Part shown: positions 39,542 through 42,924 of the stretch, one piece after another | How the letters are laid out: each line of letters starts with the position of its first letter | Numbering within the stretch: the stretch's first letter is position 1 | Source: Escherichia coli | GTDB taxonomy: Bacteria > Pseudomonadota > Gammaproteobacteria > Enterobacterales > Enterobacteriaceae | DNA length: 64,000 bases | Assembly: GCF_003790525.1 (NCBI RefSeq) | Contig: NZ_CP033635.1 | Strand: one strand, 5' to 3' | Translations under genes and position numbers: made by a program | Notes under the pieces: generated by a model | Seen by the model: the letters and a program-made list of their open reading frames with translations, nothing else | Database searches by the model: none | What the model was told of the DNA's origin: nothing

Positions 39542-40951
39542 ATGCAACGAGGGATAGTCTGGGTAGTCGATGACGATAGTTCCATCCGTTGGGTGCTTGA
39601 ACGTGCGCTCGCTGGAGCGGGTTTAACCTGTACGACATTTGAGAACGGCGCGGAAGTACTGGAGGCGCTGGCGAGCAAAACGCCGGATGTGCTGCTTTCA
39701 GATATCCGTATGCCGGGAATGGACGGGCTGGCGCTGCTCAAGCAGATTAAACAGCGCCATCCGATGCTTCCGGTCATCATTATGACCGCACATTCCGATC
39801 TGGATGCTGCCGTCAGCGCCTATCAACAAGGGGCGTTTGATTATCTGCCCAAACCGTTTGATATCGACGAAGCCGTCGCGCTGGTTGAGCGCGCCATCAG
39901 TCATTACCAGGAACAGCAGCAGCCGCGTAATGTTCAGCTTAACGGCCCAACGACCGATATCATCGGCGAAGCGCCAGCCATGCAGGACGTGTTCCGTATT
40001 ATCGGTCGGCTTTCGCGTTCTTCTATTAGCGTGCTGATTAACGGCGAATCCGGCACCGGTAAAGAACTGGTCGCTCATGCCCTGCATCGCCACAGTCCGC
40101 GAGCCAAAGCGCCATTTATCGCGCTGAATATGGCTGCTATCCCGAAGGATTTGATCGAATCAGAACTGTTTGGTCACGAGAAAGGCGCATTTACCGGCGC
40201 GAATACCATTCGTCAGGGGCGTTTTGAACAGGCTGATGGCGGTACATTATTCCTCGATGAAATTGGCGATATGCCGCTGGATGTGCAGACGCGTTTGCTG
40301 CGCGTGCTGGCAGACGGTCAGTTTTATCGCGTTGGCGGCTATGCGCCGGTGAAAGTGGATGTGCGGATTATCGCTGCCACTCACCAGAATCTTGAACAGC
40401 GGGTGCAGGAAGGTAAGTTCCGTGAGGATCTGTTCCACCGCCTGAACGTTATCCGCGTTCATCTGCCGCCATTGCGTGAGCGTCGGGAAGATATTCCCCG
40501 TCTGGCACGCCATTTTTTACAGGTTGCCGCGCGCGAACTGGGCGTAGAAGCGAAGTTGCTGCATCCGGAAACCGAAGCCGCGCTGACGCGCCTGGCGTGG
40601 CCAGGCAACGTGCGCCAGCTGGAAAACACCTGTCGCTGGCTAACGGTGATGGCCGCCGGGCAGGAAGTGTTGATTCAGGATTTGCCCGGTGAACTGTTTG
40701 AATCAACGGTTGCGGAGAGTACTTCGCAAATGCAACCGGACAGTTGGGCGACACTTTTAGCGCAGTGGGCAGACAGAGCGCTGCGTTCCGGTCATCAAAA
40801 CCTGCTTTCCGAAGCGCAGCCTGAGCTGGAGCGGACGTTACTGACGACCGCGTTGCGACATACGCAGGGGCATAAACAGGAAGCGGCGCGGCTACTCGGC
40901 TGGGGCCGCAACACCCTGACGCGTAAGTTAAAAGAGCTAGGGATGGAGTGA
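39542..40951 (+). CDS. glnG: Nitrogen-regulation response regulator NtrC (sigma-54 activator); ORF opens at 39482 overlapping glnL
   Basis: Receiver domain (VWVVDDD), AAA+ sigma-54 interaction domain ([14 protein letters not shown]), C-terminal HTH. Confidence 0.95.
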
Positions 40952-41062
40952 TTCACGGCTTGTGAGTAAAGATTGATTATTGAGCGCAAATTGCTGGTAT
41001 TTTGCGCTTTACTGTTCCGATAAGTTCAGTATGATCTTGCCCGGAAAACGGGGAGAGTCATT

Positions 41063-41173
41063 ATGCTGGAATCAATAATTAATCTGGTATCGAGTGGCGC
41101 AGTTGACAGCCACACACCACAAACTGCCGTTGCTGCCGTGCTGTGTGCCGCGATGATTGGGCTGTTTAGTTGA
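41063..41173 (+). CDS. yshB: 36-codon small hydrophobic protein ORF (MLESIINLVSSGAVDSHTPQTAVAAVLCAAMIGLFS)
   Basis: ATG 41063 to TGA 41171-41173, translated by hand; below ORF-track size cut-off; my recollection places small-protein gene yshB between glnG and hemN. Confidence 0.5.
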   Translation: MLESIINLVSSGAVDSHTPQTAVAAVLCAAMIGLFS

Positions 41174-41206
41174 GTTTCAGATTGCTGATGAAGTGCTCTT
41201 TGTTCA

Positions 41207-41297
41207 TGCCGGATGCGGCGTGAACGCCTTATCCGGCCTGCAAAAGCAATATTTTCAACAGGTTTTGTAGGCCTGATAAGCGTAGCGCATCAGGCAA
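41207..41297. repeat. REP/BIME palindromic elements
   Basis: GCCGGATGCGGCGTGAACGCCTTATCCGGCCTG and GTAGGCCTGATAAGCGTAGCGCATCAGGC read directly. Confidence 0.8.
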
Positions 41298-41362
41298 TCT
41301 TGTTCTCAGCACATTGATGGCGCTTTCGTTTTCTACTTTGTAAACGAAGCGCCATTCACTAT

Positions 41363-42736
41363 TTAAATCACCCGTGAGAACTGCTGCATCCGCGCTTTCT
41401 GGCGCAGATAGGTATCAAAGCACATGCAAATGTTGCGGATCAGCAAGCGACCTTTCGCCGTCACCTGAATCCCCTTCTCATCCACATCCACCAGCCCATC
41501 TTTTGCTAACGGGGCGAGCAGCTTGAGATCTTCCGCAAAGTAATCAGCGAAGTGCAAATCCCACTGTTGCTCAATGGGAGCGTAATCCAGACGGAAGTTG
41601 CAGATGAGCGACTTAATCACATCGCGGCGAATACAGTCATCACGCGTTAGCGCAATACCACGCCACAGCGCGTTGCCTTGTTCATCCACTTGCTGATAGT
41701 AGTGCTTCAACTCTTTCTGGTTCTGCGCGTAGCAGTCGCCAATCATACTGATGGCGGAAACGCCCATCCCCAGCAGATCGGTATCGCCCTGAGTGGTGTA
41801 GCCCTGGAAGTTACGATGCAGCACGCCTTCACGCTGGGCCACCGCCAGCTCGTCATCCGGGCGGGCAAAGTGATCCATCCCGATAAACTGATAGCCCGAT
41901 TGCGTCAGGAAGGCAATGGTTTCCTGCAGGATATCGAGTTTTTGCTGCGGACTCGGCAGGTCAGCATCTTTGATTTTGCGCTGAGCAGCAAAAATGGTCG
42001 GCAAATGCGCGTAGTTAAAGACGCTCAGACGATCGGGGTTCAGCTCCGCCACACGTTTCAGGGTAAAGGCAAAACTTTCCGGCGTCTGTTTCGGCAGACC
42101 GTAAATCAGGTCGATGTTGGTGGAGGTAAAGCCAATCTCACGCGCATGGTTAAGCAGTGCAAAGATGAACTCTTCATCCTGCTCGCGGTTAACCAGACGC
42201 TGTACTTCTTTGTTGAAGTCCTGCACGCCCATGCTCAGGCGATTAAAGTCCTCGGCGCGTAAATGATCGAGTACATCCAGTTCGATTTCGCGCGGATCGA
42301 CTTCGATCGAAATCTCCGCATCGGCATTGAACTGGAAGTTTTCGCGCAGCAGCTTCATCAGACGGCTGATTTGCGCTTTGTTCAGATACGTCGGCGTACC
42401 ACCGCCCCAGTGCAGCTGGCTCACCTTGCGCCCGGCAAAAAGCGGTGCACGATGGACGATTTCTTGCTCCAGCGCGTCCAGATACTGATCGGCCTTGTGC
42501 TGCTGGCGAGTAACTATCTTATTGCAACCGCAGAAGTAACAAAGCTTATGGCAGAACGGAATATGTACGTAGAGAGATAATGGACGCTCAGGATAGCGCG
42601 CCACGGCTTGTAAAAACGCCTGTTCGCCGAAGTCTTCTGAAAACTCCAGCGCGGTCGGGTACGAGGTGTATCGTGGCCCGGAATAGTTATATTTCTGGAT
42701 CAGGGCCAGATCCCAGTCGATTTGCTGTACAGACAT
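41363..42736 (-). CDS. hemN: Oxygen-independent coproporphyrinogen III oxidase (radical SAM); ORF extends to 42742
   Basis: Radical-SAM CxxxCxxC (CHKLCYFCGC). Confidence 0.95.
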   Translation of the reverse strand: MSVQQIDWDLALIQKYNYSGPRYTSYPTALEFSEDFGEQAFLQAVARYPERPLSLYVHIPFCHKLCYFCGCNKIVTRQQHKADQYLDALEQEIVHRAPLFAGRKVSQLHWGGGTPTYLNKAQISRLMKLLRENFQFNADAEISIEVDPREIELDVLDHLRAEDFNRLSMGVQDFNKEVQRLVNREQDEEFIFALLNHAREIGFTSTNIDLIYGLPKQTPESFAFTLKRVAELNPDRLSVFNYAHLPTIFAAQRKIKDADLPSPQQKLDILQETIAFLTQSGYQFIGMDHFARPDDELAVAQREGVLHRNFQGYTTQGDTDLLGMGVSAISMIGDCYAQNQKELKHYYQQVDEQGNALWRGIALTRDDCIRRDVIKSLICNFRLDYAPIEQQWDLHFADYFAEDLKLLAPLAKDGLVDVDEKGIQVTAKGRLLIRNICMCFDTYLRQKARMQQFSRVI

Positions 42737-42924
42737 GCTCACTCCTTCCGATGGCGTCTCTGGCGGCTACGGCGTACCGGCGGATGCCCGTTTCGGGTCA
42801 TCAGCCGGTTGCGCAGCCACTTTTGTCGCCGCGACAACCGCTGTAGTTTAACGAATAACCACACCAGATAACATATAACCGGAAGGGTTATCAGCAGAAC
42901 GGGAAGGCCCACGGCGGCAATCCG

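What the first reader, a model, noticed from the sequence alone, without database searches (positions are those of the whole stretch)
41063..41173. 36-codon hydrophobic small ORF between glnG and hemN
A short ORF encoding MLESIINLVSSGAVDSHTPQTAVAAVLCAAMIGLFS lies in the glnG-hemN intergenic region upstream of a REP cluster. It falls below the ORF-track cut-off. I recall a small-protein gene (yshB) at this position in K-12, but cannot verify the sequence.
Basis: partly seen in the sequence, partly recalled or inferred. Interest (0 to 1): 0.2.

Follow-up and report, generated by a model that had tools for sequence, protein, structure and literature searches.

The report
Known small-protein gene yshB

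Summary
It is yshB (b4686 in K-12 MG1655).

- **Annotation:** RefSeq annotates it as "YshB family small membrane protein" in every record listed. The DNA is present once in 5425 of 5426 complete E. coli genomes.
- **Identity:** The protein is identical to the K-12 protein. It scores 72.1 bits against NCBIfam NF033841, whose cut-off is 34.
- **Refutation test fails:** In 60 complete orthologous loci from about 20 genera, the ATG, the stop position and the frame are all kept. Lengths are 35, 36 or 40 aa. pN/pS is about 0.23, and glnG-yshB-hemN synteny is nearly universal.
- **Expression signals:** A -35/-10 promoter, a Shine-Dalgarno sequence and a downstream terminator palindrome are conserved.
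- **Published evidence:** Ribo-seq quantification, top-down mass-spectrometric detection, RseP cleavage of tagged YshB, and a virulence role for the Salmonella homolog.
- **Likely mechanism (inferred):** A tail-anchored inner-membrane peptide that modulates an unknown partner through an invariant small-residue helix face.

Novelty: already known. Interest: low.

The parts
39542..40951 (+). glnG (ntrC), the upstream neighbour on the same strand. Context only; not co-regulated with yshB according to the literature.
   Evidence: The RefSeq table of identical strain SMS-3-5 mapped onto the window and the ORF list. glnG lies upstream on the same strand in 59 of 61 orthologous loci, with a spacer of about 110 nt.
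41008..41035 (+). Candidate sigma-70 promoter of yshB: -35 TTTACT (41008-41013), 16-nt spacer, -10 TATGAT (41030-41035).
   Evidence: It is the only promoter-like site in 40850-41450 on either strand. CTTTAC is invariant and GTATGAT nearly invariant in 21 genera, from E. coli to Brenneria. [quoted passage not shown] The transcription start site was not determined here.
41050..41057 (+). Shine-Dalgarno sequence GGGGAGAG. GGAG ends 7 nt before the ATG.
   Evidence: Read from the sequence. A G-rich SD sits at the same distance in all 60 complete orthologous loci.
41063..41173 (+). yshB coding sequence, 36 codons plus TGA.
   Evidence: RefSeq annotation. NCBIfam NF033841 at 72.1 bits against a cut-off of 34. 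Frame conservation and pN/pS of 0.23.
41202..41245 (.). REP unit 1 (GCCGGATGCGGCGTGAACGCCTTATCCGGCCTGC).
   Evidence: Inverted repeat with arms at 41200-41221 and 41224-41245. Sub-threshold naRNA4 (REP-derived) match at 41202-41238. Multi-copy in E. coli genomes.
41267..41295 (.). REP unit 2, in the opposite orientation (GTAGGCCTGATAAGCGTAGCGCATCAGGC). It pairs with unit 1 in the RNA fold.
   Evidence: Fold of 41166-41365, z = -9.15. This stretch is variable against K-12.
41317..41355 (.). Palindrome abutting the hemN stop codon (ATGGCGCTTTCGTTT ... AAACGAAGCGCCAT). Probably the shared 3'-end hairpin of the convergent yshB and hemN transcripts.
   Evidence: Stem in the fold. Identical in K-12. 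In genera without REPs, the whole yshB-hemN spacer (27-81 nt) is dominated by one strong GC-rich palindrome of unrelated sequence. The scan did not score it as a canonical terminator because it lacks a T-run.
41363..42736 (-). hemN, the convergent downstream neighbour (context).
   Evidence: hemN is convergent downstream in 60 of 61 orthologous loci.

Best explanation
The ORF is the known gene yshB, a compact monocistronic unit. It has its own sigma-70-type promoter, a 5' leader that can be no longer than the 27 nt between the -10 and the ATG, a Shine-Dalgarno sequence, 36 codons, and a 3' hairpin shared with convergent hemN. It is translated into a 36-residue peptide with no Lys or Arg. The peptide has a short amphipathic N-terminal helix (residues 2-12), a variable linker (13-16), and a 19-residue C-terminal helix (17-35) whose hydrophobic core runs to the C-terminus.

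My inferred mechanism follows. The peptide inserts post-translationally as a tail-anchored, N-in/C-out single-pass inner-membrane protein. It acts by packing its invariant small-residue helix face against a larger membrane protein or against itself, as other bacterial small membrane proteins do. That face is H17-T-P-Q-T-A22, A25, C28, A29, all within a 120-degree arc of the helix. Its level is trimmed by the site-2 protease RseP. The partner and the cellular process in E. coli are unknown. In Salmonella the homolog supports intracellular replication.

What is shown: the gene's identity, its conservation, its expression signals, and (from the literature) translation, detection of the protein and RseP cleavage. 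What is inferred: topology, partner binding and physiological role.
For: Identity:
- RefSeq annotates yshB under the match in all records listed, and the DNA is present once in 5425 of 5426 genomes.
- It is b4686 in MG1655.
- The protein is identical to the K-12 protein, and the only 3 nucleotide differences in the ORF are synonymous.
- NF033841 equivalog at 72.1 bits against a cut-off of 34.

Coding selection:
- 60 complete orthologs all have the ATG at the same site, the same stop position, and lengths of 35, 36 or 40 aa.
- Divergence by codon position is 0.19, 0.074 and 0.459. Mean pS is 0.553, pN is 0.129, and the ratio is 0.23.
- Synteny holds in 59 of 61 loci (glnG) and 60 of 61 (hemN).

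Expression signals:
- The -35 and -10 are conserved.
- A hairpin fills the 3' spacer in every genus examined.

Literature:
- Ribo-seq and RNA-seq quantification of yshB (PMC10746267 Table S8).
- More than 11,000 copies per cell, predicted from ribosome profiling, as cited by PMC7549839 and PMC10502375.
- The intact protein was seen by top-down MS (PMC12529367).
- Tagged YshB was cleaved by RseP in all four assays, including chromosomal-level RseP and purified enzyme (PMC10470546). The same paper says RseP substrates are generally type II, N-in/C-out.

Peptide anatomy:
- GRAVY 1.12, no K or R, best hydrophobic window at residues 21-35.
- AlphaFold model with helices 2-12 and 17-35, pLDDT 75.
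- The 4-residue insertion of the 40-aa orthologs falls in the linker.
- Invariant H17 T18 P19 Q20 T21 A22 A25 C28 A29.
Against: - No partner, phenotype or localisation for E. coli YshB appears in any paper I could read. MG1655 still calls it 'uncharacterized protein'.
- The strongly hydrophobic core is only 15-17 residues, which is short for a transmembrane span.
- With no positive charges, the positive-inside rule gives no topology.
- The proteomics paper lists YshB separately from the 'small membrane proteins'.
- All RseP data use N-terminally tagged constructs, and those authors warn that tags may alter topology.
- Invariance of residues 16-25 among the 61 loci is partly forced by the retrieval pattern [SAT]HT[PS]QTAx[AV]A. 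C28 and A29 lay outside that pattern, and the unbiased phmmer hits show the same core.
- The AlphaFold model has only moderate confidence (pLDDT 75, pTM 0.36).
Confidence: 0.9

Rival explanations
1. The ORF is a chance reading frame, and the conservation belongs to something else: a non-coding RNA or a gene on the antisense strand.
For: ORFs of this size are common by chance (63 ORFs of at least 20 aa in 4.5 kb). One antisense frame stays open in 51 of 61 orthologs. By my own coordinate arithmetic on the ORF positions, that frame shares its wobble position with the sense frame. Codon-position periodicity alone therefore cannot separate the two.
Against: - The antisense ORF has no conserved start, stop or length. 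Lengths range from 0 to 189 aa and start offsets are scattered.
- The sense ORF keeps its ATG, SD and stop position in every complete locus, and all length changes are in frame.
- Promoter-like elements point in the sense direction, and none was found on the - strand.
- No Rfam family matches the ORF.
- The intact YshB protein has been detected by top-down MS, and Ribo-seq quantifies it.
Confidence: 0.01
2. yshB is a dual-function locus. Besides encoding the peptide, the short, abundant transcript acts as a base-pairing regulatory RNA.
For: - The unit is a short monocistronic transcript with a strong 3' hairpin.
- In Pseudomonas, an sRNA (NrsZ) lies downstream of ntrBC, in what PMC9731577 calls the corresponding locus.
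- From my memory of the Bomjan 2019 abstract (the paper is not held), YshB was found during a screen for Salmonella small RNAs.
Against: - There is no Rfam match.
- Substitutions concentrate at synonymous sites, which is the opposite of what a conserved seed within the ORF would give.
- The putative 5' stem-loop is no better than shuffled sequence.
- No paper found reports RNA targets.
Confidence: 0.05
3. YshB is a membrane-damaging toxin-like peptide of the type I toxin kind (Hok, Ldr, Ibs, TisB), rather than a regulator of another protein.
For: It is small and hydrophobic. In the RseP screen it falls in the same 'class I' substrate group as HokB and HokE.
Against: - No antisense promoter and no conserved antisense element was found.
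- It is predicted to be present at more than 11,000 copies per cell without harm.
- It sits at a single fixed chromosomal position with universal synteny, not as a multi-copy mobile module: one place per genome and conserved synteny.
- It has no cationic residues.
- The Salmonella homolog is beneficial to the bacterium.
Confidence: 0.04

Closest known systems
E. coli K-12 YshB (b4686, YP_002791260.1 / WP_000893994.1; NCBIfam NF033841 'YshB family small membrane protein')
   Same: The 36-aa sequence is identical. It occupies the same position between glnG and hemN, and has the same promoter, SD, start and stop.
   Different: There are three synonymous nucleotide differences in the ORF. The REP complement downstream also differs: K-12 has an extra block of about 49 nt and lacks a 10-nt stretch.
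Salmonella enterica YshB (Bomjan et al. 2019, as cited in PMC10470546 and PMC9731577)
   Same: It is an ortholog at the same locus. Identity is 86-94% in the subsp. arizonae and diarizonae loci, at 36 aa. Against the window, pN is 0.03-0.07 and pS about 0.6.
   Different: A role in intracellular replication and virulence is reported for Salmonella. No phenotype for E. coli appears in the papers I could read.
Small inner-membrane regulators such as MgrB (PhoQ), Blr (divisome) and CydX (cytochrome bd), cited in PMC10470546
   Same: It is a single predicted membrane helix of fewer than 50 aa, it is a substrate or candidate substrate of RseP, and it has a conserved helix face suited to helix-helix packing.
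   Different: No sequence relationship was found, and Pfam has no family for it. No partner is known for YshB. YshB has no Lys or Arg at all, and its hydrophobic segment is at the extreme C-terminus. It is not present in any solved structure.

Membership tests
YshB family small membrane protein (NCBIfam NF033841, equivalog) | Whole-protein HMM score above the curated cut-off | tested here: met
   72.1 bits against a cut-off of 34, E = 2.4e-20, covering residues 1-36 on profile positions 1-40.
YshB family small membrane protein (NCBIfam NF033841, equivalog) | Sequence identity with the type member, E. coli K-12 b4686 | tested here: met
   The translation of the DH1 yshB gene is identical. SMS-3-5 and DH1 share accession WP_000893994.1. 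MG1655 b4686 sits at the syntenic position. The sequence printed in PMC10746267 Table S8 is identical.
YshB family small membrane protein (NCBIfam NF033841, equivalog) | Conserved genomic position downstream of glnLG and convergent with hemN | tested here: met
   glnG lies upstream in 59 of 61 loci and hemN is convergent downstream in 60 of 61.
YshB family small membrane protein (NCBIfam NF033841, equivalog) | Reading frame maintained under purifying selection in related species | tested here: met
   The ATG and the stop position are conserved, lengths are 35, 36 or 40 aa, and pN/pS is 0.23.
YshB family small membrane protein (NCBIfam NF033841, equivalog) | The protein is actually synthesised | not testable with these tools
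   Literature on K-12 only: Ribo-seq quantification, top-down MS detection, and copy number from ribosome profiling as cited. The promoter, SD and CDS in this window are near-identical to K-12.
YshB family small membrane protein (NCBIfam NF033841, equivalog) | Integral membrane localisation | tested here: inconclusive
   A C-terminal helix at 17-35 is predicted, but the hydrophobic core is only 15-17 residues and there are no flanking charges. RseP cleavage of tagged YshB implies membrane insertion. The primary localisation paper (Fontaine 2011) is not held.
Type I toxin-antitoxin peptides (Hok/Ldr/Ibs/TisB kind) | An overlapping or adjacent antisense RNA antitoxin, with the toxin normally kept off | tested here: not met
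   No promoter-like site on the - strand in 40850-41450. No conserved antisense ORF or element. The literature cites high steady-state expression.
Peptide leader / regulatory upstream ORF | A co-directional downstream gene whose expression the short ORF controls | tested here: not met
   The next gene, hemN, is convergent and separated by a hairpin. The amino-acid sequence is itself under selection.

The most novel reading that the evidence does not exclude
The evidence does not exclude that YshB has a specific and still undiscovered membrane partner. It would contact that partner through the invariant His17...Cys28 small-residue face, and its abundance would be set by RseP proteolysis. That would make YshB a conserved Enterobacterales regulator linking envelope-stress proteolysis to some core membrane function. 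A further possibility is that the transcript doubles as a regulatory RNA. Either would be new biology for a known gene, not a new genetic element.
Probability: 0.3. Interest if true: 0.35.

Novelty: already known. Interest (0 to 1): 0.08.

Why it matters
As a scan result it matters little. The ORF is a textbook case of a genuine gene that falls below ORF-length cut-offs, and it is already in RefSeq, EcoCyc-type gene lists (b4686) and NCBIfam.

Its remaining value is as an open functional question. YshB is highly conserved from Escherichia to Erwinia and Brenneria, reportedly abundant, an RseP substrate, and needed for Salmonella intracellular growth, yet it has no known partner or mechanism in E. 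coli. The conservation analysis here picks out the residues to mutate: H17, T21, A25, C28 and A29 on one helix face, with a variable linker at 13-16.

Tried and rejected
- **Word-indexed protein search:** I used the exhaustive HMMER library instead.
- **Family and structure libraries:** Pfam, PADLOC and PDB sequence search with the family profile returned nothing. Rfam returned only the REP-derived sub-threshold hit.
- **Primary papers not held:** Hemm 2008, Hemm 2010, Fontaine 2011, Bomjan 2019, Li 2014, Thomason 2015 and Weaver 2019. Their content is cited only second-hand, or flagged as memory.
- **Other literature look-ups:** the search for 'b4686' gave only irrelevant catalogue numbers. 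No supplementary text is held for PMC11429745.
- **5' hairpin:** I suspected a conserved stem-loop (CCCG-GAAAA-CGGG, 41040-41053) with compensatory changes. RNAalifold found 0 pairs. Per-sequence shuffles showed no excess: mean z was -0.78, and the best stem was 4.30 bp against 4.29 bp in shuffles. Rejected as unsupported.
- **Sigma-54 promoter:** by eye, the stretch upstream of yshB has no GG-N10-GC arrangement. This agrees with the literature statement that the gene is not nitrogen-induced.
- **Antisense ORF 41026..41115(-):** rejected.
- **Neighbouring ORFs:** 41157..41270 and 41213..41317 lie inside REPs and are not conserved.
- **Fold search:** not run, because a 36-residue two-helix model is uninformative for that purpose.

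Full report
**Observation**

An ATG at 41063 opens a 36-codon frame that ends with TGA at 41171-41173. It encodes MLESIINLVSSGAVDSHTPQTAVAAVLCAAMIGLFS. It lies 111 nt downstream of the glnG stop codon and 189 nt from the stop codon of convergent hemN.

A 36-codon ORF is not remarkable in itself. The same 4.5 kb holds 63 ORFs of at least 20 aa. Two of similar size (41157..41270 and 41213..41317) lie inside the REP elements and are not conserved outside Escherichia.

**Identity**

- A 501-nt query around the ORF hits 5425 of 5426 complete E. coli genomes. Every listed record carries the annotation "yshB: YshB family small membrane protein".
- The yshB-only 181-nt query is present exactly once per genome at 95-100% identity.
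- In a strain with 100% identity (SMS-3-5), the CDS coordinates map exactly to window 41063..41173, and the protein is WP_000893994.1.
- The K-12 derivative DH1 carries the same accession, and its gene translates to the identical 36 residues.
- MG1655 annotates it as yshB, b4686, YP_002791260.1, "uncharacterized protein YshB", at 4053647..4053757 (-), between hemN and glnG.
- The peptide scores 72.1 bits (E = 2.4e-20) against the NCBIfam equivalog model NF033841 small_YshB, whose curated cut-off is 34. Pfam has no family for it.

**Is it a real gene?

The exhaustive HMMER search of 1.84 billion representatives found only 15 hits. All are YshB-like and share an HTPQTA..A..CA core. Several are clearly frameshifted or mis-started calls of the same gene.

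A profile-guided scan of one genome per species returned 61 loci. They come from Escherichia, Salmonella, Citrobacter, Enterobacter, Klebsiella indica, Kosakonia, Trabulsiella, Phytobacter, Pluralibacter, Leclercia, Franconibacter, Mangrovibacter, Pseudenterobacter, and, outside the Enterobacteriaceae, Izhakiella, Erwinia and Brenneria.

In all 60 loci that are not truncated by a contig end:
- The ATG is at the homologous position.
- A G-rich Shine-Dalgarno sequence lies 5-9 nt upstream.
- The stop follows the same C-terminal residue.
- The length is 35, 36 or 40 aa, so every indel is a multiple of three.

All 61 coding sequences (the window plus these 60) differ at the DNA level but give only 37 distinct proteins. 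Mean pairwise divergence is 0.19, 0.074 and 0.459 at codon positions 1, 2 and 3. Mean pS is 0.553 and pN is 0.129, a ratio of 0.23. Against the Salmonella loci, pN is 0.03-0.07 at a pS of about 0.6. Against K-12, the only three differences inside the ORF are synonymous, while the REP region just downstream differs by indels.

Synteny is nearly universal. glnG lies upstream on the same strand in 59 of 61 loci, and the other two are cut off at the yshB end. hemN is convergent downstream in 60 of 61, with Brenneria the exception.

One caveat needed checking. An antisense frame stays open in 51 of 61 loci, and by coordinate arithmetic it shares the wobble position with the sense frame. Periodicity alone does not exclude it. 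That antisense ORF (41026..41115 in the window), however, has no conserved start, stop or length, which ranges from 0 to 189 aa. It is a shadow of the sense-strand constraint.

**Expression signals**

- *Promoter.* The only sigma-70-like site in 40850-41450 on either strand is TTTACT-16 nt-TATGAT at 41008-41035. In an alignment of 21 genera, CTTTAC is invariant and GTATGAT nearly so. These are the best-conserved non-coding columns of the spacer. [quoted passage not shown]
- *3' end.* In genera without REPs, the yshB-hemN spacer is 27-81 nt. It is dominated by one strong GC-rich palindrome (-15 to -47 kcal/mol) whose sequence differs from genus to genus. Some are textbook bidirectional terminators, such as AAAAGGCGGG...CCCGCCTTTT in Franconibacter.
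- *In the window.* The spacer has been expanded by two oppositely oriented REP units, followed by a palindrome at 41317-41355 that abuts the hemN stop. The whole 200 nt folds with z = -9.15. The simple terminator scan scored none here, so the exact 3' end is inferred.

**Published experimental evidence** (what I could read)

- *Translation.* A Ribo-seq study lists yshB under "Previously known sORFs" with exactly this sequence. It gives ribosome-footprint and RNA fold-changes under acid stress. At pH 5.8 against pH 7.6, the RIBO log2FC is 0.61. In a second comparison it is -1.67 with padj 0.0011 (PMC10746267 Table S8).
- *Abundance.* Two papers cite ribosome-profiling-based estimates of more than 11,000 YshB copies per cell (PMC7549839, PMC10502375).
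- *Protein detection.* Intact YshB was detected by top-down proteomics. The authors note that it lacks tryptic sites (PMC12529367), which matches my count of zero Lys or Arg.
- *Proteolysis.* N-terminally tagged YshB is a "class I" substrate of the site-2 protease RseP. It was cleaved in all four assays, including with chromosomal RseP and with purified enzyme. It is also clipped periplasmically by unidentified proteases (PMC10470546). RseP substrates are generally type II, N-in/C-out, although the authors caution that tags may alter topology.
- *Salmonella homolog.* It is reported to promote intracellular replication and virulence (Bomjan et al. 2019, cited).
- *Core-genome status.* A smORF survey found the family in the core genomes of E. 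coli, K. pneumoniae, S. enterica and S. sonnei.
- *Negative or neutral notes.* C-terminally His-tagged YshB was not detectable in one study. An SNP in the yshB-glnG spacer was not among the three mutations found to improve phloroglucinol tolerance in an evolved strain. yshB was down-regulated in a mouse colitis model.
- *Not held.* The discovery paper (Hemm et al. 2008) and the localisation paper (Fontaine et al. 2011) are not held. My recollection that Hemm et al. confirmed synthesis by chromosomal SPA tagging is memory, not a tool result.

**Anatomy of the peptide and likely mechanism**

The peptide has a GRAVY of 1.12, two acidic residues, one His, one Cys, and no Lys or Arg. The only strongly hydrophobic stretch is residues 21-35, and it runs to the C-terminus. 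Residues 1-12 are moderately amphipathic, with a hydrophobic moment of about 0.5.

AlphaFold2, using 26 orthologs, gives helices at 2-12 and 17-35 with a break at 13-16 (mean pLDDT 75, pTM 0.36). The 4-residue insertion of the 40-aa orthologs falls exactly in that break.

The invariant columns are M1, H17, T18, P19, Q20, T21, A22, A25, C28 and A29. By helical-wheel arithmetic at 100 degrees per residue, positions 18, 21, 22, 25, 28 and 29 fall within one 120-degree arc. This gives a face of small residues with 3-4 spacing, which is typical of tight helix-helix packing in membranes.

One caveat applies. Residues 16-25 were part of the retrieval pattern for the 61 loci, so their invariance there is partly forced. 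C28 and A29 were not in the pattern, and the unbiased phmmer hits show the same core.

From this I infer a tail-anchored, post-translationally inserted, N-in/C-out inner-membrane peptide. It would work by binding a larger membrane protein, or by self-associating, through that face, and it would be turned over by RseP. I put the gene's identity and reality at about 0.99. I put this mechanistic picture at roughly 0.5. The partner and the physiological role in E. coli are unknown. No solved structure contains it.

**Rivals**

- *Chance ORF, antisense gene or pure non-coding RNA.* Excluded.
- *Type I toxin.* Disfavoured. There is no antisense element, the gene sits at a single fixed locus, abundance is cited as high, the peptide has no cationic residues, and the Salmonella homolog is beneficial.
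- *Leader peptide.* Excluded, because the next gene is convergent and the peptide sequence is itself selected.
- *Dual-function RNA.* Cannot be excluded, but nothing supports it.

**Verdict**

The element is the already known gene yshB. It is ordinary as a scan finding. Its only residual interest is the unsolved function of a well-conserved small protein.

Noticed in passing
window 41040-41053: A small stem-loop, CCCG-GAAAA-CGGG, sits between the -10 and the SD and recurs across genera. It has seemingly compensatory variants: CGCG/CGCG in Franconibacter and CCGGT/ACCGG in UBA5654. RNAalifold found no consensus pairs, and the stems are no longer than in shuffled sequence (4.30 vs 4.29 bp; mean z = -0.78). 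Depending on the TSS, the 5' arm may not even be transcribed.
   Followed up: yes
window 41174-41300 vs L002 (K-12 DH1) 775-1000: The REP complement between yshB and hemN is polymorphic within E. coli. K-12 carries an extra block of about 49 nt holding a REP just after the yshB stop, and lacks a 10-nt stretch of the second REP. The yshB promoter and CDS and the hemN-proximal palindrome are conserved almost perfectly.
   Followed up: partly
window 40961-41006: Two conserved non-coding blocks lie between the glnG stop and the yshB -35. One is TGTGTAAAGATT-like, at about 40961-40975. The other is AGCGCAAAnTGCTGnTATTTTGCG, at about 40990-41006. Both are kept from E. coli to Mangrovibacter, and the glnG-yshB spacing is constant at about 110 nt. 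They could be a glnALG terminator, an UP element or a regulator binding site. By eye there is no sigma-54 GG-N10-GC arrangement.
   Followed up: no
window 41026-41115 (-): A 29-aa antisense ORF overlaps the yshB start. Its frame shares the wobble position with yshB and stays open in 51 of 61 orthologs, so it mimics coding conservation. It has no conserved start, stop or length.
   Followed up: yes
L013-L021, L040, L058, L060-L063 (Kosakonia, Brenneria, Franconibacter, Mangrovibacter): A 40-aa YshB variant carries a 4-residue insertion (for example AGVE or HSAE). The insertion falls exactly in the predicted inter-helix linker, which suggests the two helices are separate functional modules.
   Followed up: partly
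P0002, P0005-P0008: Several YshB 'representatives' in the large protein library are frameshifted, read-through or mis-started versions of the same gene, for example a 60-aa protein that reads into the REP region. These are gene-calling or assembly artefacts, not family diversity.
   Followed up: no
summary: Two of the 5425 yshB matches in complete E. coli genomes are on records labelled as plasmids. They are probably mislabelled chromosomal replicons or large chromosomal segments.
   Followed up: no
window 42736-42742 (-): The mechanical ORF list starts hemN at a GTG at 42742. RefSeq starts it two codons downstream, at 42736 (MSVQQIDW...).
   Followed up: no
L040 (Brenneria sp. 4F2): This is the only locus where hemN is not convergent downstream of yshB, and the glnG-yshB spacer is longer (266 nt against about 110 nt). 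The yshB promoter hexamers and ORF are still intact.
   Followed up: no
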